Source of the DNA: a virus | Taxonomy: Duplodnaviria > Heunggongvirae > Uroviricota > Caudoviricetes | IMG/VR virus record: IMGVR_UViG_2547132488_000016 | Direction: 5' to 3' (one strand) | Length of the DNA stretch: 6,282 bases | Notes under the pieces: model-generated | Told to the model about the DNA's origin: nothing | What the model saw: the letters and a program-made list of their open reading frames with translations, nothing else | Database searches by the model: none | Shown: positions 1,914 to 6,011 of the stretch, in pieces | Numbering within the stretch: the stretch's first letter is position 1 | Layout of the letters: every line of letters starts with the position of its first letter | Made by a program: the position numbers and the translations under genes

Positions 1914-2600
1914 TTACCAAGTGCGCGATGACCAGAATACTCTACCTATAACGTGAATTCTGGAACGCCTATCTTCGAAGGTGAGTATTTCATCTGGATA
2001 CTCATCTTTATTGAAACTTCTTAGAATCAGACCACCGTCAGGTAAATTGATCAATATCTTAACTCTAAGTAATACGCCATCACGTATAGCATAAAGATCC
2101 CCATCACGAATAGGAACTGTTTGGGAAACATCAACAGCAACAAAATCTCCATTGTTAAGTACAGGTAGTAAACTATTACCCCAAATTTTTACGATCTTTG
2201 CATTGGAGACACATACACCAGCTTTCCTTAAATCAATCCTTCTTAGCGGGAACCAGTCTACAGTTGATTCAACTATTTCAGCCAAACATCCATTACCCGC
2301 TGATAACTCGACATCTAGGACAGGAATGTTTGCAAAAATGTCAGGATCTAATGTTGTACTTTCAGCCTCCTTTACAACAAGGTTTGGGAAAGACGCGTTA
2401 TCCTCAATGCCCAATTGCAACCACTTTTGAGAAACCCCTAACACTTTAGCAATCTCTTTAATTTTCCGAGGCTGTTGAGTTTCTCCATTCTCGATTTTTG
2501 CTACGGATTGTTGTGAAAGCCCAATCTTTTCAGCTAGTTGCGCCTGACTCATTCCTGCTTTTTCTCTTTCGCTTTTTAGTCTTTCTGCCAATGTTTTCAC
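1914..2600 (-). CDS. CI-like prophage repressor (HTH_XRE N-terminal domain + LexA/S24 autopeptidase C-terminal domain), 228 aa
   Basis: GTG start at 2600 with GAGGGGGA 6 nt upstream on the minus strand. N-terminal HTH (MSQAQLAEKIGLSQQSVAKIENGE), candidate Ala-Gly autocleavage site (ELSAGNG), Ser in GNSLLP and Lys in LRVKIL about 40 residues apart (S24 Ser/Lys dyad). Divergent from a Cro-like gene across an operator region. Confidence 0.9.
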   Translation of the reverse strand: MKTLAERLKSEREKAGMSQAQLAEKIGLSQQSVAKIENGETQQPRKIKEIAKVLGVSQKWLQLGIEDNASFPNLVVKEAESTTLDPDIFANIPVLDVELSAGNGCLAEIVESTVDWFPLRRIDLRKAGVCVSNAKIVKIWGNSLLPVLNNGDFVAVDVSQTVPIRDGDLYAIRDGVLLRVKILINLPDGGLILRSFNKDEYPDEILTFEDRRSRIHVIGRVFWSSRTW

Positions 2601-2737: not shown

Positions 2738-2986
2738 ATGACACCTGAGCAATTAGCCTTATCAGAGGCAATCGCTCTGGCTGGTGGTCAATCAGAATTG
2801 GCTCGGAAGCTCACAGCCAGCAGTGGTCGTTTAGTAAAGCAACAACATGTCTGGAACTGGTTGAACAGAGAAAAGCGTCCCCCTGCAAAGCTCTCGATAT
2901 TCATTGAAATGACCACTGGCGTATCAAAAGAAAAATTACGTCCAGATATTTTTCAAAAGATTAAAGACTTATCAGATGGAAAGTAA
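2738..2986 (+). CDS. Cro-like / YdaS-like small HTH regulator, 82 aa
   Basis: ATG 2738 with AGGAG upstream; TAA stop 2984..2986. Small HTH protein (ALAGGQSELARKLTASSGRLVKQQHVWNWL) immediately rightward of the operator and divergent from cI, the canonical cro position. Resembles the YdaS (Cro analogue) family by motif memory only. Confidence 0.85.
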   Translation: MTPEQLALSEAIALAGGQSELARKLTASSGRLVKQQHVWNWLNREKRPPAKLSIFIEMTTGVSKEKLRPDIFQKIKDLSDGK

Positions 2987-3008
2987 CCACAGTTTTAAGG
3001 AGATAGCC

Positions 3009-3566
3009 GTGGGTAAGCATCACTGGAAAGTAGAAAAACAGCCTGAGTGGTACGTGAAAGCTGTCAGAAAAACTATCGCGGCGTTGCCGGGTGGTTACGC
3101 TGAAGCAGCTGAGTGGCTGGATGTAACAGAGAACGCTTTATTCAACCGCCTTCGTGCAGATGGCGATCAGATTTTCCCGCTGGGATGGGCAATGATTTTA
3201 CAACGTGCTGGTGGAACTCACTTCATTGCTGACGCTGTGGCGCAGTCTGCAAATGGCGTCTTTGTGTCTCTTCCTGACGTCGAGGATGTGGACAACGCCG
3301 ATATTAACCAGCGTCTGCTGGAAGTAATTGAACAGATCGGCAGTTATTCCAGACAGATTCGTTCGGCAATCGAAGATGGGGTAGTGGAGCCACACGAGCA
3401 GACAGCAATTAATGATGAGTTGTATCTGTCAATTTCGAAGCTCCAGGAGCATGCAGCACTGGTCTACAAAATCTTCTGCGCTCCAGAAAAGAGTAACGCC
3501 CGCGAGTGTGCAGCTCCGGGCGTCGTGGCGTCGATTGCTTCTGGTTGTGGAGAAACTAACGCATGA
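3009..3566 (+). CDS. YdaT-like / CII-analogue early regulator, about 185 aa
   Basis: Open frame 2976..3566. GTG at 3009 has a perfect AAGGAG 6 nt upstream (2997..3002), whereas the ATG at 2976 has no SD and overlaps the cro stop, so 3009 is preferred (2976 is the alternative). Occupies the cII position after cro. Stop TGA 3564..3566 overlaps the next ATG (ATGA), indicating translational coupling. YdaT-family assignment is from memory, unverified. Confidence 0.75.
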
Positions 3567-3921
3567 ACAGTTTAACAACACACTACCGTCGCTCGCAACT
3601 GATTGCGCTTCCGGTACCGGGTGGAAAAGCGAAGGTGGAGTATTGCTATGCAGTGAATGTACCAGGTGACAGGGAAATTGTAACCCACAGCTTTGCAGAG
3701 TGGGCTGTGGGTGATTTCAACCGGCAGAAGGAGACAGTCCTTTGCGACAAGTTAACCGCTGGTTCAAAGATCACTACGGAGTGCCCGTCAGAGTCATTCG
3801 TTGGGAGCCGGAAACACAACGGGTTATCTACCTCCGTGAAGGCTATGAACATGAATGCTTCAGCCCGCTCGAACAGTTTCGTCGTAAATTCAGGGAAATA
3901 GAGGTCGGTCATGAGCACTAA
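3563..3921 (+). pseudogene. Small early gene with a broken reading frame: N-terminal part in one frame (3563..about 3750), C-terminal part in the -1 frame (about 3715..3921)
   Basis: ATG 3563 (ATGA overlap with upstream stop) opens a frame with good codon usage for about 60 codons ([53 protein letters not shown]). Beyond about 3750 that frame becomes Ser/Asn-rich with rare codons, while the -1 frame, open from 3715 to TAA 3919..3921, reads protein-like with common codons ([58 protein letters not shown]) and ends 11 nt inside the next gene. Alternative: a separate 59-codon gene from TTG 3742, which has AAGGAG 7 nt upstream. Confidence 0.5.
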
Positions 3922-4867
3922 ATTAACCGGCTATGTATGGGATGGTTGCGCTGCGTCAGGCATGAAGTTATCCAGCGTGGCAATTATGGCCCGCCTGGCT
4001 GATTTCAGTAATGACGAAGGTGTATGCTGGCCATCAATTGAAACCATTGCCCGCCAGATTGGCGCGGGGATGAGTACCGTCAGAACGGCTATCGCACGGC
4101 TGGAAGCAGAAGGCTGGTTAACGCGTAAGGCGCGTCGCCAGGGTAACCGCAATGCGTCGAATGTTTATCAGCTTAACGTTGCGAAGCTTCAGGCAGCGGC
4201 ATTTTCTCAACTGTCAGATTCTGACCCGTCAAAATCTGACGCATCAAAATCTGACGCATCAAAATCTGACCCGTCAAAATTTGATGCGTCGAAATCTGGC
4301 AAAAAAGCGGGTTTTCACCCGTCAGAATCTGGCGGGGATCCGTCAGTAAAATCAAAACATGATCCGTCAGATAAAAAAACTTCTCGTCCGGACGCTTCGC
4401 AACCGGACACGCAGACGGATGAACAGGATTTTTTAACTCGCCATCCTGATGCGGTTGTATTCAGCCCTAAAAAGCGCCAGTGGGGGACGCAGGATGATTT
4501 GACCTGCGCACAGTGGCTCTGGAAAAAAATCATCGCCTTGTACGAGCAGGCCGCCGAATGTGACGGCGAGGGGGTTCGTCCCAAAGAACCTAACTGGACA
4601 GCCTGGGCAAACGAAATTCGCCTGATGTGTGTGCAGGATGGTCGTACTCACAAACAAATCTGCGAGATGTACAGCCGCGTCAGCCGCGATCCGTTCTGGT
4701 GCCGTAACGTGCTCAGCCCGTCGAAGTTGCGGGAAAAATGGGATGAGCTTTCCCTGCGATTATCGCCGTCCGTCAGCACGTACACCGAAAAACGCGAAGA
4801 CCCGTATTTCAAAGCCAGTTACGACAACGTGGACTACAGCCAGATCCCGGCAGGATTCAGGGGGTGA
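3911..4867 (+). CDS. Phage replication initiator (lambda O-like role): N-terminal winged-HTH DNA-binding domain, repeat-rich acidic linker, C-terminal domain; 318 aa
   Basis: ATG 3911 with GAGG 6 nt upstream; TGA stop 4865..4867. N-terminal HTH-like segment (SSVAIMARLADFSNDEGVCWPSIETIARQIGAGMSTVRTAIARLEAEGWLTRK). The gene contains tandem 15-bp iterons that encode an SKSDASKSDASKSDPSKFDASKS repeat, as in lambda O, where ori lies inside the gene. Position after cro/cII-like genes fits. Confidence 0.8.
   Translation: MSTKLTGYVWDGCAASGMKLSSVAIMARLADFSNDEGVCWPSIETIARQIGAGMSTVRTAIARLEAEGWLTRKARRQGNRNASNVYQLNVAKLQAAAFSQLSDSDPSKSDASKSDASKSDPSKFDASKSGKKAGFHPSESGGDPSVKSKHDPSDKKTSRPDASQPDTQTDEQDFLTRHPDAVVFSPKKRQWGTQDDLTCAQWLWKKIIALYEQAAECDGEGVRPKEPNWTAWANEIRLMCVQDGRTHKQICEMYSRVSRDPFWCRNVLSPSKLREKWDELSLRLSPSVSTYTEKREDPYFKASYDNVDYSQIPAGFRG
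4213..4380. repeat. Probable replication origin: five to six tandem 15-bp iterons (TCAAAATCTGACGCA and variants, 4214..4303), degenerate copies to about 4336, then an A-rich tract (4371..4379)
   Basis: Read directly: 4229..4243 and 4244..4258 are identical; 4259..4273, 4274..4288 and 4289..4303 are 1- to 4-mismatch variants; 4214..4228 is a degenerate copy containing the palindrome GTCAGA-T-TCTGAC. Two GATC sites (4337..4340, 4361..4364) and an A-rich tract follow. The layout mirrors lambda ori (iterons plus an AT-rich region inside O). Confidence 0.7.
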
Positions 4868-4869
4868 TC

Positions 4870-5358
4870 ATGAGTCTTTTGAATGAAGTTCAGAAATTCA
4901 TTGAAGCCCATCCGGGGTGTACTTCCGGAGACATTGCGGATGCTTTTGCAGGTTACTCACGGCAGCGCGTTCTGCAGTCAGCAAGCAAGTTACGTCAGAG
5001 TGGGCGTGTGGCTCACCGTTGTGAAGGAGATACACGCAGACATTTCCCACGCCTGACTGAGAGAGCGCAGGAGCCGGAACCACAACCAGTTCGTGAAACC
5101 AGACCTGTGCGCAATTTCTATGTCGGCACTAACGATCCCCGGGTGATTTTGTGCCTGACCCGCCAGGCGGAAGAACTGGAGTCCAGGGGCTTATACCGTC
5201 GTGCTGCAACGGTGTGGATGGCGGCATTCCGTGAAAGCCACTCCCAGCCAGAACGAAACAATTTTCTGGCGCGTCGTGAGCAGTGTTTACGGAAAAGCAG
5301 CAAGCGCGCTGTATCGGGTGATGAGTGGTATCTGTCAGGGAATTACGTGGGGGCTTAA
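4870..5358 (+). CDS. Putative transcriptional regulator: N-terminal winged-helix-like domain plus C-terminal PerC/Pch-like motif; about 162 aa
   Basis: ATG 4870 with GGGGG 5 nt upstream (GTG 4864, overlapping the upstream TGA, is the alternative); TAA stop 5356..5358. The C-terminal segment AEELESRGLYRRAATVWMAAF matches the PerC-family hallmark (LE..GLWRRAA..W) by eye. N-terminus (LLNEVQKFIEAHPGCTSGDIADAFAGYSRQRVLQSASKLRQSGRV) looks like a small wHTH. Confidence 0.65.
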   Translation: MSLLNEVQKFIEAHPGCTSGDIADAFAGYSRQRVLQSASKLRQSGRVAHRCEGDTRRHFPRLTERAQEPEPQPVRETRPVRNFYVGTNDPRVILCLTRQAEELESRGLYRRAATVWMAAFRESHSQPERNNFLARREQCLRKSSKRAVSGDEWYLSGNYVGA

Positions 5359-6011
5359 TGAGTAATAAATATTGCCAGGCGCTGGTGGAACTGCGGAACA
5401 AACCAGCCCATGAACTGAAGGAAGTAGGTGATCAGTGGCGCACGCCGGACAACATTTTCTGGGGAATTAACACCCTGTTTGGCCCGTTTGTTCTGGATCT
5501 GTTCACTGACGGTGATAACGCCAAATGTGCTGCGTATTACACGGCGGAAGACAACGCGCTGGCGCATGACTGGTCAGAACGTCTTGCGGAGCTTAAAGGG
5601 GCTGCCTTTGGTAATCCCCCATACAGTCGCGCCAGTCAGCATGAGGGGCAATACATCACTGGCATGCGTTACATCATGAAACATGCCAGTGCCATGCGTG
5701 ATAAGGGTGGGCGCTATGTTTTCCTGATCAAAGCTGCCACCAGCGAAGTGTGGTGGCCGGAAGATGCGGACCATATTGCTTTTATTCGCGGACGTATTGG
5801 TTTTGAACTGCCTGCCTGGTTTATCCCGAAGGATGAGAAGCAGGTGCCGACAGGCGCTTTCTTCGCTGGTGCTATTGCTGTTTTCGATAAGACCTGGAAG
5901 GGACCGGCAATCAGCTACATCGGGCGCGATGAACTTGAGGCATGTGGTGAGGCGTTTCTGGCGCAGGTTCGCCAGCAGGCGGAAAAACTGGTCAGGGAGA
6001 TGGCGGCATGA
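5358..6011 (+). CDS. Phage-type DNA N6-adenine methyltransferase (Dam family, NPPY motif), 217 aa
   Basis: ATG 5358 overlaps the upstream TAA (TAATG), with GGGGG upstream; the ORF track's earlier start at 5325 is in the same frame and less likely. Contains the catalytic motif GNPPYS (AAFGNPPYSRA) and an upstream W-x-T-P motif (DQWRTPDNIF), typical of small phage orphan Dam-family methyltransferases. Stop TGA 6009..6011 overlaps the next ATG. Confidence 0.8.
   Translation: MSNKYCQALVELRNKPAHELKEVGDQWRTPDNIFWGINTLFGPFVLDLFTDGDNAKCAAYYTAEDNALAHDWSERLAELKGAAFGNPPYSRASQHEGQYITGMRYIMKHASAMRDKGGRYVFLIKAATSEVWWPEDADHIAFIRGRIGFELPAWFIPKDEKQVPTGAFFAGAIAVFDKTWKGPAISYIGRDELEACGEAFLAQVRQQAEKLVREMAA

What the first reader, a model, noticed from the sequence alone, without database searches (positions are those of the whole stretch)
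3563..3921. Reading-frame break in the small gene between the CII-like gene and the replication initiator
Codon usage and amino-acid composition are protein-like in one frame for 3563..about 3750 and in the -1 frame for about 3715..3921. Each frame degenerates in the other half (the original frame runs on as Ser/Asn-rich sequence with rare codons to TAG 3899..3901). I could not find an X-XXY-YYZ slippery heptamer in the overlap, so a programmed -1 frameshift is not supported. The options are a genuine frameshift mutation (pseudogene), a sequencing indel, or two genes, the second starting at TTG 3742, which has AAGGAG 7 nt upstream.
Basis: seen in the sequence. Interest (0 to 1): 0.45.

Follow-up and report, generated by a model that had tools for sequence, protein, structure and literature searches.

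The report
Two overlapping prophage genes, not a frameshift
The apparent reading-frame break is the junction of two real, separately translated small prophage genes (the cell-division inhibitor gene ymfM and a nested DUF4222 gene) that overlap out of frame; this is an ordinary kind of arrangement, but it leaves unclear which product was responsible for the published "YmfM/SfiC" division block.

Summary
Protein-coding signal runs in one frame for 3563-c.3741 and in the -1 frame for 3742-3921.

The window is the immunity/replication region of an e14-type lambdoid prophage of E. coli. Gene 1 is ymfM (3563-3901, 112 aa). Only its first ~58 codons are conserved as protein: 18 of 18 substitutions are synonymous across 86 loci. 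Many relatives encode this module as a standalone 59-68-aa protein. Gene 2 is a 59-aa DUF4222 protein (Pfam E 8.6e-19) with its own AAGGAG and TTG start; the start is ATG in most other lineages.

The two genes also occur apart: separated by a KilA-N gene, adjacent with a 4-nt overlap, or the N-module without DUF4222. No intact fused ORF exists, and there is no slippery site.

One unexpected result: in 11 divergent lineages the ymfM frame stays open across the whole DUF4222 gene, although its residues there are not conserved (0 stops at 57 at-risk codons, P about 5e-9).

MG1655 annotates only ymfM, and PGAP annotates only DUF4222. The clones used to equate ymfM with SfiC carry both genes.

The parts
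2976..3566 (+). ymfL (CII-like, Phage_CP76). Its TGA stop (3564-3566) overlaps the ymfM ATG (3563-3565) as ATGA.
   Evidence: Pfam PF06892 E 8.7e-14; annotated ymfL in RefSeq; sequence.
3563..3901 (+). ymfM ORF, 112 aa ('cell division inhibitor YmfM', b1148 type), as one open frame.
   Evidence: ORF list; full-length match to phrog_1170, E 7.7e-70; annotated as ymfM in MG1655 and in phage records.
3563..3741 (+). N-module of ymfM (about 58 codons). This is the only part of ymfM conserved as protein. It is predicted to fold as three strands plus a helix.
   Evidence: 18 of 18 substitutions synonymous and the 58-aa sequence identical in 86 loci; standalone 59-68-aa homologues; phrog_20047; AlphaFold pLDDT about 80 for residues 11-66.
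3712..3714 (+). TGA in the -1 (DUF4222) frame. It bounds that frame upstream and leaves only 3715-3741 for any hypothetical frameshift. It is polymorphic: T in 55 of 69 unique sequences.
   Evidence: Translation; variation table.
3728..3733 (+). Shine-Dalgarno AAGGAG for the DUF4222 gene, 8 nt upstream of TTG.
   Evidence: Sequence; GGAG-like motifs at the same place in the other lineages.
3742..3921 (+). DUF4222 gene, 59 aa, TTG start, -1 frame relative to ymfM. 160 nt of it lie inside the ymfM ORF and its last 11 nt overlap the O-like gene.
   Evidence: Pfam PF13973 E 8.6e-19; PGAP CDS WP_001250269.1 at these coordinates; third-position periodicity; AlphaFold pLDDT 83.7 with an SH3/Tudor-like barrel.
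3742..3898 (+). Tail of ymfM (codons 61-112), overprinted on DUF4222. It is Ser/Thr-rich, predicted disordered and not conserved in sequence, but kept free of stop codons.
   Evidence: 5 synonymous against 30 nonsynonymous changes; pLDDT below 50; 0 stops at 57 at-risk codons in 11 lineages, and P(open) 0.02-0.14 per lineage by synonymous resampling.
3899..3904 (+). ymfM stop TAG (3899-3901) overlapping the GAGG (3901-3904) that precedes the O-like start. The ymfM frame is the same as the O frame.
   Evidence: Sequence; frame-0 translation 'SGK*RSVMSTKL' and the same layout in 6 of 8 lineages.
3911..4867 (+). O-like replication initiator (HTH_36/DnaD_N-like). Its ATG 3911 lies 9 nt after the ymfM stop and inside the end of DUF4222.
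   Evidence: Pfam; annotation.

Best explanation
Between the CII-like gene ymfL and the O-like replication gene of this e14-type prophage lie two independent small genes that overlap out of frame.

Gene 1 is ymfM. It starts at ATG 3563, coupled to the ymfL stop by an ATGA overlap. It encodes a conserved folded module of about 58 aa. In this clade the ORF lacks a stop at the end of that module and reads on for 52 more codons, ending at TAG 3899, 9 nt before the O-like ATG.

Gene 2 is a 59-aa DUF4222 protein, an SH3/Tudor-like beta-barrel. It is translated from its own ribosome-binding site (AAGGAG 3728-3733, TTG 3742) in the -1 frame, and its stop lies just inside the O-like gene.

What is shown: both coding signals, the independence of the two genes, the conserved internal start, and the absence of any fused ancestor or slippery site.

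What is statistically supported but mechanistically unexplained: the ymfM frame is kept stop-free across DUF4222 although its residues there drift freely.

What is inferred (about 35% likely as the reason): the frame is kept open so that ribosomes translating ymfM terminate on the Shine-Dalgarno sequence of the replication gene and couple its translation to the upstream operon. The alternative is that a disordered, composition-only C-terminal tail is needed by YmfM.

After the LexA-like repressor is cleaved in the SOS response, the operon is expressed and one of the two products (unresolved which) blocks FtsZ-ring formation, giving the SfiC phenotype.
For: Identity of the locus: 100% match to E. 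coli RM9088 and 96.5% to K-12 e14. MG1655 annotates ymfM b1148. PGAP annotates only DUF4222 at 3742-3921.

Coding signal switches frame: N half 18/18 synonymous; C half 23 synonymous and 15 nonsynonymous in the DUF4222 frame against 5 and 30 in the ymfM frame. A second clade replicates this.

Independence of the two genes:
- L265/L266: a 63-aa N-module gene is followed by DUF4222 with a 4-nt overlap.
- L262 and L090: a KilA-N/ANT gene lies between them.
- L263/L264: N-module without DUF4222.
- The DUF4222 homologues listed are mostly 59-70 aa (range 43-102 aa including partials), and the only one carrying an N-module is the deletion variant P0008.
- Many N-module homologues are standalone at 59-67 aa.
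- PHROGs keeps them as separate families.

Own start: a start codon plus a GGAG-like motif at the same position in 11 lineages; ATG in 165 loci, TTG in 270, GTG in 3.

Both products fold: YmfM residues 11-66 at pLDDT about 80 with the tail below 50; DUF4222 at pLDDT 83.7.

Open tail: P(open) is 0.02-0.14 per lineage. There are 0 stops at 57 at-risk codons, against 28.6% in flanking genes, so P is about 5e-9. The same frame of non-overlapped DUF4222 genes carries 4-5 stops. Of 438 loci, only 2 have a shortened tail (an indel and an in-frame deletion), whereas about 11 have a nonsense-truncated DUF4222 despite similar nonsense target sizes of 24 and 26.

Function: the ymfM ORF expressed from pBAD24 blocks Z-ring formation (bioRxiv 10.1101/2020.11.19.390815).
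Against: - No direct evidence was found (ribosome profiling or mass spectrometry) that TTG 3742 is used or that either protein accumulates. A literature search for ymfM together with ribosome profiling returned nothing.
- TTG is a weak start codon.
- The 11 tail-type lineages descend from one ancestral junction, so they are not fully independent, although silent sites are close to saturation (synonymous-codon identity 0.2-0.6).
- All stop-creating changes that are synonymous in DUF4222 are transversions, which lowers the power of the within-clade test.
- The coupling explanation for the open tail is untested. Three lineages manage without a tail.
Confidence: 0.88

Rival explanations
1. A genuine frameshift mutation has split an ancestral single gene of about 118 aa, so the locus is a pseudogene.
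For: Two halves in different frames with no slippery site. One 118-aa protein (P0045) and one 102-aa protein carrying both an N-module and DUF4222 (P0008) exist in databases.
Against: P0045 follows the ymfM tail to residue ~94 before switching frame. P0008 is a deletion that removes the DUF4222 N-terminus. Each comes from a single contig. No other listed DUF4222 homologue carries an N-module. The two genes occur separately. Both halves are under purifying selection in 438 loci and 11 lineages.
Confidence: 0.02
2. A sequencing or assembly indel near 3715-3760 in this record creates an artificial frame break.
For: None beyond the appearance of a frame break.
Against: The stretch is identical or near-identical in 1,931 complete E. 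coli genomes and in many phage records. The same layout occurs in hundreds of independently assembled contigs.
Confidence: 0.01
3. Programmed -1 ribosomal frameshifting in 3715-3741 makes an N-module-DUF4222 fusion protein, with or without the separate products.
For: The -1 frame is open from 3715. A single-codon T_TTC site at 3715-3718 could in principle slip.
Against: There is no in-frame X-XXY-YYZ heptamer in the window or at the junction of 7 other lineages. The junction RNA is no more stable than shuffles (z = -0.64). In relatives such as L091 and L096 a -1-frame stop lies between the GDF motif and the DUF4222 start. A conserved Shine-Dalgarno motif and start codon make slippage unnecessary.
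Confidence: 0.04
4. Only DUF4222 is a gene and 3567-3741 is an untranslated spacer (the PGAP view).
For: PGAP annotation of complete genomes. No Pfam or NCBIfam model matches the N-module.
Against: 18 of 18 substitutions are synonymous and the 58-aa sequence is invariant in 86 loci. A family of standalone 59-68-aa homologues reaches down to 36-45% identity in Hafnia, Serratia and Gibbsiella. The start is ATGA-coupled to ymfL. The fold is confidently predicted.
Confidence: 0.02
5. Only the 112-aa YmfM is a gene and the DUF4222 ORF is a chance ORF inside it (the MG1655/EcoCyc view).
For: The MG1655 record lists only ymfM. The published phenotype is attributed to YmfM.
Against: Pfam E 8.6e-19. 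Third-position periodicity follows the DUF4222 frame and not the ymfM frame. Standalone DUF4222 genes exist across Enterobacteriaceae. The beta-barrel model is confident.
Confidence: 0.02

Closest known systems
ymfM (b1148) of the E. coli K-12 e14 prophage, 'cell division inhibitor YmfM' = SfiC (Ansari et al., bioRxiv 10.1101/2020.11.19.390815)
   Same: Same gene: 96.5% DNA identity over 601 bases including both ORFs. Same 112-aa ORF, same neighbours (ymfK, ymfT, ymfL upstream; an O-like gene downstream) and a full-length phrog_1170 match.
   Different: Nothing differs at the locus. What differs is the reading of it. The literature treats YmfM as one 112-aa protein. Here only residues 1-58 behave as conserved protein and the rest overlaps a conserved nested gene. 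The published clones (the ymfM ORF in pBAD24; clone D1-8E) also contain 53 of 59 codons, or all, of DUF4222.
Pfam PF13973 (DUF4222) / RefSeq WP_001250269.1 / phrog_1343
   Same: The -1-frame product is a full-length member (67.3 bits; profile positions 3-52 of 53). Its sequence is identical to the PGAP-annotated protein at these coordinates.
   Different: No function is known. Five papers mention DUF4222, each only once, and none has it in its title or abstract. In other prophages the gene stands alone. Here 160 of its 180 nt lie inside another ORF.
Embedded out-of-frame phage gene pairs such as lambda Rz/Rz1 (own knowledge, not tested here)
   Same: A small gene with its own ribosome-binding site lies in an alternative frame inside a larger ORF of a lambdoid phage, and both are translated from one mRNA.
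   Different: In Rz/Rz1 both proteins are sequence-constrained across the overlap. Here only the inner gene is constrained at the amino-acid level, and the outer frame is merely kept open. The inner gene also runs 20 nt past the outer stop. There is no homology to Rz or Rz1.
Small prophage-encoded FtsZ-ring inhibitors (lambda Kil, Rac KilR, Qin DicB, SulA)
   Same: A small protein (about 60 aa) expressed from a derepressed prophage early operon blocks Z-ring formation.
Programmed -1 frameshift sites (dnaX, IS elements, phage tail chaperones G/GT)
   Same: Two coding segments lie in the 0 and -1 frames with an overlap.
   Different: There is no slippery heptamer and no stimulatory structure. 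A stop lies in the -1 frame 18-30 nt upstream, and the second segment has its own conserved Shine-Dalgarno motif and start.

Membership tests
Pfam DUF4222 (PF13973) | Whole-protein score above the curated gathering threshold, with near full-length profile coverage. | tested here: met
   67.3 bits against a cut-off of 27; E 8.6e-19; profile positions 3-52 of 53.
Pfam DUF4222 (PF13973) | A small standalone protein of about 60-70 aa in enterobacterial prophages. | tested here: met
   The homologues listed are mostly 59-70 aa (range 43-102 aa including partials and the P0008 deletion fusion). The window product is 59 aa with its own Shine-Dalgarno motif and start.
YmfM / SfiC (b1148; phrog_1170) | Sequence membership: a full-length match to the 112-aa family and synteny ymfL - ymfM - O-like gene. 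| tested here: met
   phrog_1170 E 7.7e-70 over positions 1-112. 96.5% DNA identity to K-12 e14. Synteny.
YmfM / SfiC (b1148; phrog_1170) | Expression inhibits FtsZ-ring formation and causes filamentation. | not testable with these tools
   Shown for the K-12 allele on a fragment that also carries most of DUF4222. Which product acts has not been resolved.
Programmed -1 ribosomal frameshift site | An in-frame slippery heptamer X-XXY-YYZ within the frame overlap. | tested here: not met
   The only XXXYYYZ in 3650-3800 is GGGAAAT at 3672, which is off-frame and upstream of the -1-frame stop. None occurs at the junction of 7 other lineages.
Programmed -1 ribosomal frameshift site | A downstream stimulatory RNA structure (stem-loop or pseudoknot). 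| tested here: not met
   3690-3800 folds at -33 kcal/mol, z = -0.64 against shuffles.
Pseudogene (disrupted ORF) | Intact single-ORF homologues exist, and the disrupted copy shows relaxed constraint. | tested here: not met
   There are no intact fused homologues. Both halves are under purifying selection.
Overlapping (dual-coding) gene pair | The second ORF lies in an alternative frame with its own conserved ribosome-binding site and start, and the arrangement is conserved in divergent relatives. | tested here: met
   11 lineages, 438 loci, start codon at +173 to +179 nt, GGAG-like motif upstream.
Overlapping (dual-coding) gene pair | Both frames are under amino-acid-level purifying selection within the overlap. 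| tested here: not met
   The DUF4222 frame is constrained (23 synonymous, 15 nonsynonymous). The ymfM frame is not (5 synonymous, 30 nonsynonymous). Only the openness of the ymfM frame is conserved.

The most novel reading that the evidence does not exclude
The 52-codon tail of ymfM is an ORF maintained by selection for being translated rather than for what it encodes. Ribosomes that start at ymfM must run through the nested DUF4222 gene and terminate on the Shine-Dalgarno sequence of the replication-initiator gene, coupling replication-protein synthesis to the early operon. A linked possibility is that the real SfiC division inhibitor is the overlooked DUF4222 barrel, or requires both products, rather than the 112-aa 'YmfM'.
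Probability: 0.3. Interest if true: 0.65.

Novelty: new member of a known kind. Interest (0 to 1): 0.45.

Why it matters
ymfM is the gene recently equated with SfiC, an SOS-associated cell-division inhibitor sought for 35 years. The two main annotation systems disagree about the locus. MG1655/EcoCyc lists only the 112-aa ymfM, and PGAP/RefSeq lists only DUF4222, so neither shows that both are coding. Every clone and deletion used so far affects both products, so the protein that blocks FtsZ-ring assembly has not been unambiguously identified.

Because the overlap is out of frame, single silent-in-one-frame mutations can separate the two products cleanly, which makes the question directly testable.

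The conserved openness of an overprinted frame whose residues are free to drift is also a tidy natural case for studying selection on translation itself (coupling or polarity), as opposed to selection on a protein sequence.

Tried and rejected
- **Intact fused ORF:** I searched with a word-indexed search, an exhaustive phmmer search of 1.84 billion representatives and a DUF4222 search. The only candidates were single-contig indel or deletion variants (P0008, P0045, P0058, P0065).
- **Slippery sites and stimulatory RNA structure:** none found.
- **Promoter and terminator scan of 3300-4100:** no promoter-like sites and two weak terminator-like hits at chance level, so there is no sign of a regulatory spacer.
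- **NCBIfam:** no model for either product.
- **Giant proteins with repeated N-module-like stretches (P0050, P0066):** these are Listeria-Bacteroides repeat proteins, so I treated the matches as compositional and spurious.
- **First at-risk codon table:** it wrongly included the terminal stop-forming codon.
- **First resampling script:** timed out.
- **Genome-contig scan with the N-module:** returned only 3 loci.
- **Burke 2013 and Mediati 2018 screens:** their insert boundaries do not separate the two products.
- **Literature on ymfM with ribosome profiling:** nothing found.

Full report
**What the window is**

The 6.3-kb window is the immunity/early-right region of an e14-type lambdoid prophage of E. 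coli. Its genes, in order, are:
- an S24-peptidase cI-like repressor (1914-2600, minus strand);
- a Cro/YdaS-like gene (2738-2986);
- the CII-like ymfL (2976-3566; Pfam Phage_CP76);
- the region in question;
- an O-like helix-turn-helix replication gene (3911-4867);
- a PerC-like gene (4864-5358).

The stretch 3400-4000 is 100% identical to E. coli RM9088 and 96.5% identical to K-12 e14. At least 80% of it is present in 1,931 of 5,426 complete E. coli genomes and in phages such as SfII and SfIV.

**Checking the observation**

- The ATG 3563 ORF runs to TAG 3899-3901 (112 aa).
- The -1 frame is closed by TGA 3712-3714 and open from 3715. Its first start is TTG 3742, 8 nt after AAGGAG (3728-3733), and it ends at TAA 3919-3921.
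- There is no in-frame slippery heptamer.

The frame switch is not a matter of impression. I aligned 86 related loci (69 unique sequences) from viral contigs.
- In 3563-3741, 12 of 13 variable sites are third positions of the first frame (p = 1.7e-5). The 13th is a synonymous CGG-to-AGG change. All 18 substitutions are synonymous and the 58-aa sequence is invariant.
- In 3742-3910, 23 of 37 variable sites are third positions of the -1 frame (p = 3e-4). Substitutions are 23 synonymous and 15 nonsynonymous in the -1 frame, against 5 and 30 in the first frame.
- The periodicity changes between 3736 and 3756.
- A second clade, about 60% identical in the N-terminal protein, shows the same switch.

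**What the two halves are**

The -1-frame product is a full-length DUF4222 protein (PF13973; 67.3 bits against a cut-off of 27). PGAP annotates exactly this CDS (WP_001250269.1) in RM9088 and in K-12 derivatives, and leaves 3567-3741 empty.

The first-frame ORF is ymfM. The curated MG1655 record annotates it as b1148, 'cell division inhibitor YmfM', 112 aa, and has no DUF4222 gene. Older phage records do the same. The two annotation traditions are therefore mutually exclusive, and each is half right. PHROGs holds three separate families of unknown function: the 112-aa form (phrog_1170), a 63-aa short form of the N-terminal module (phrog_20047) and DUF4222 (phrog_1343).

**Are they one gene or two?**

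An exhaustive phmmer search with the first 60 residues found 55 proteins. Many are standalone proteins of 59-68 aa, from Hafnia, Serratia, Gibbsiella and other genera. The DUF4222 homologues listed are mostly 59-70 aa. They range from 43 to 102 aa when partial sequences are included, and the only one that carries an N-module is the deletion variant P0008.

Genomic contexts settle the matter.
- **L265/L266:** a 63-aa N-module gene is followed by a 62-aa DUF4222 gene with a 4-nt ATGA overlap, and that is followed by the O-like gene.
- **L262 and L090:** a KilA-N/ANT gene sits between the two.
- **L263/L264:** the N-module is followed by KilA-N and the O-like gene, with no DUF4222 at all.
- **L088 (Entomohabitans):** DUF4222 has suffered an in-frame internal deletion while the N-module persists.

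The proteins that look like fusions are not intact ancestors. P0008 (102 aa) is a deletion. P0045 (118 aa) follows the ymfM tail to about residue 94 before switching frame. P0058 and P0065 carry further frame errors. Each comes from a single contig or a few.

In all 11 lineages that share the window's layout, a start codon sits 173-179 nt after the N-module ATG, preceded by a GGAG-like motif. It is ATG in 165 loci, TTG in 270 and GTG in 3. The DUF4222 frame has a stop 18-30 nt upstream of that start.

Together these results refute the pseudogene, sequencing-indel and frameshifting readings, and support independent initiation at TTG 3742.

**The unexpected part: the tail is kept open**

I classified 507 loci retrieved through the N-module alone. 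They fall into 21 N-module clusters at 85% identity.
- 11 clusters have the window's 'tail' layout. In every one the N-module frame runs open for 111-117 codons, across the whole of DUF4222.
- 3 clusters have adjacent genes without a tail.
- 5 clusters have KilA-N in between.
- 2 clusters lack DUF4222.

I then held each lineage's DUF4222 protein fixed and resampled synonymous codons using the codon usage of the neighbouring phage genes. The overlapping frame stays open in only 2-14% of samples per lineage.

The stops would arise at Val, Leu or Ile codons followed by a codon starting with A or G. At 57 such positions in the 11 lineages, none forms a stop, although third-base T/C exchanges do occur between lineages. 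The same codon context forms an out-of-frame stop in 28.6% of cases (171 of 598) in flanking genes, which gives P of about 5e-9. DUF4222 genes that are not overlapped (L265, L262, L090) carry 4-5 stops in that same frame, so the absence of stops is not a property of the family.

Silent sites are close to saturation between lineages (synonymous-codon identity 0.2-0.6). This limits the concern about shared ancestry but does not remove it.

Among 438 tail-type loci, the N-module frame is shortened in only two, by an indel and by an in-frame deletion. DUF4222 is truncated by nonsense mutations in about 11 loci. The nonsense target sizes are similar, at 24 and 26 substitutions, although all 24 in the tail frame are transversions.

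The tail's residues are clearly unconstrained (5 synonymous against 30 nonsynonymous), and AlphaFold predicts the tail to be disordered (pLDDT below 50). Residues 11-66 form a small three-stranded sheet plus a helix at pLDDT about 80.

**How it most likely works**

Shown: ymfM starts at an ATGA overlap with ymfL. DUF4222 starts internally. The ymfM stop (TAG 3899-3901) overlaps the GAGG that precedes the O-like ATG at 3911. ymfM is in the same frame as the O-like gene in 6 of 8 lineages examined. DUF4222 ends 8 nt after that ATG, and in some variants it extends 30-75 nt further.

Inferred: the whole early-right operon is a chain of translationally coupled genes. In the tail clade, the ymfM ribosomes, rather than those translating the weakly initiated DUF4222 gene, deliver termination-reinitiation at the replication gene. 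That would select against premature stops without constraining residues. I put this at roughly 35%. The main alternative is a requirement for a disordered C-terminal extension that depends on composition only.

**Relation to the literature**

Ansari et al. cloned 'the ymfM open reading frame' into pBAD24 and obtained filaments lacking Z-rings, independently of SulA, SlmA and MinC. They concluded that ymfM is sfiC. That fragment also contains the AAGGAG, the TTG and 53 of the 59 DUF4222 codons, which covers every predicted structural element. The earlier library clone D1-8E carries the whole of both genes. The ymfM deletion removes most of DUF4222 as well. None of the papers found mentions the nested gene. 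DUF4222 is mentioned in five papers, once in each and never in a title or abstract, and I read none of them. The identity of the active product is therefore open.

**Verdict**

The finding is real, and its explanation is an ordinary one: two overlapping genes, both already present in databases under different annotation schemes. It is not a frameshift, a pseudogene or an error.

It gains some interest from three points. The reference annotations are mutually exclusive. The SfiC assignment is ambiguous as a result. The outer reading frame is kept open without residue conservation. All three points can be tested with single mutations that are silent in one frame: T3753A, C3745T and T3742C.

Noticed in passing
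window 4220-4298: A 15-bp unit (TCTGACCCGTCAAAA) is repeated 5.3 times inside the O-like replication gene, where it encodes the SDASK/SDPSK peptide repeats. It looks iteron-like and is probably the prophage replication origin, as in lambda, where ori lies inside the O gene.
   Followed up: partly
window 3532-3537: A 6-bp in-frame indel polymorphism (CGATTG present or absent) lies near the 3' end of ymfL, and is absent in 38 of 69 unique relatives. It explains the 595- versus 601-base matches.
   Followed up: partly
window about 3474-3486, about 3576 and about 3916: Mosaic breakpoints. Many phages match only up to about 3576, 13 nt into ymfM, and then carry Rha or antirepressor genes. Others match 3474-3916 only. 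The ymfM+DUF4222 pair therefore travels as one exchangeable module bounded by the ymfL 3' end and the O-like start.
   Followed up: partly
L010 (IMGVR_UViG_2534681940_000023), N-module at 1501: A variant with a recombinant DUF4222 3' end has lost the ymfM stop, so the ymfM frame runs on for 553 codons into the downstream gene.
   Followed up: no
L088/L089 (Entomohabitans teleogrylli) 3001-3237, and protein P0054: In-frame internal deletions remove most of DUF4222 but keep its start region and its last ~14 codons. They also keep the N-module frame ending at the usual place just before the O-like gene.
   Followed up: partly
window 3712: The T of the -1-frame TGA (3712-3714) is polymorphic: G in 12, A in 1 and C in 1 of 69 unique sequences. 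In those variants the DUF4222 frame is open further upstream, which may explain longer database versions such as the 86-aa P0085.
   Followed up: no
window 5325-6011: A 228-aa ORF follows the PerC-like gene. Relatives carry Dam or MT-A70 methyltransferase genes at this position, whereas RM9088, which is 100% identical across the 601 bases (3400-4000) that were compared, carries LexA-family and RusA genes instead. This indicates a further mosaic junction near 5350.
   Followed up: no
proteins P0050, P0066, P0071, P0077: Giant proteins of 1,000-1,700 aa hit the N-module with up to 13 stretches. The two that could be characterised, P0050 and P0066, are Listeria-Bacteroides repeat (Flg_new) proteins, so the matches are probably compositional.
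   Followed up: partly
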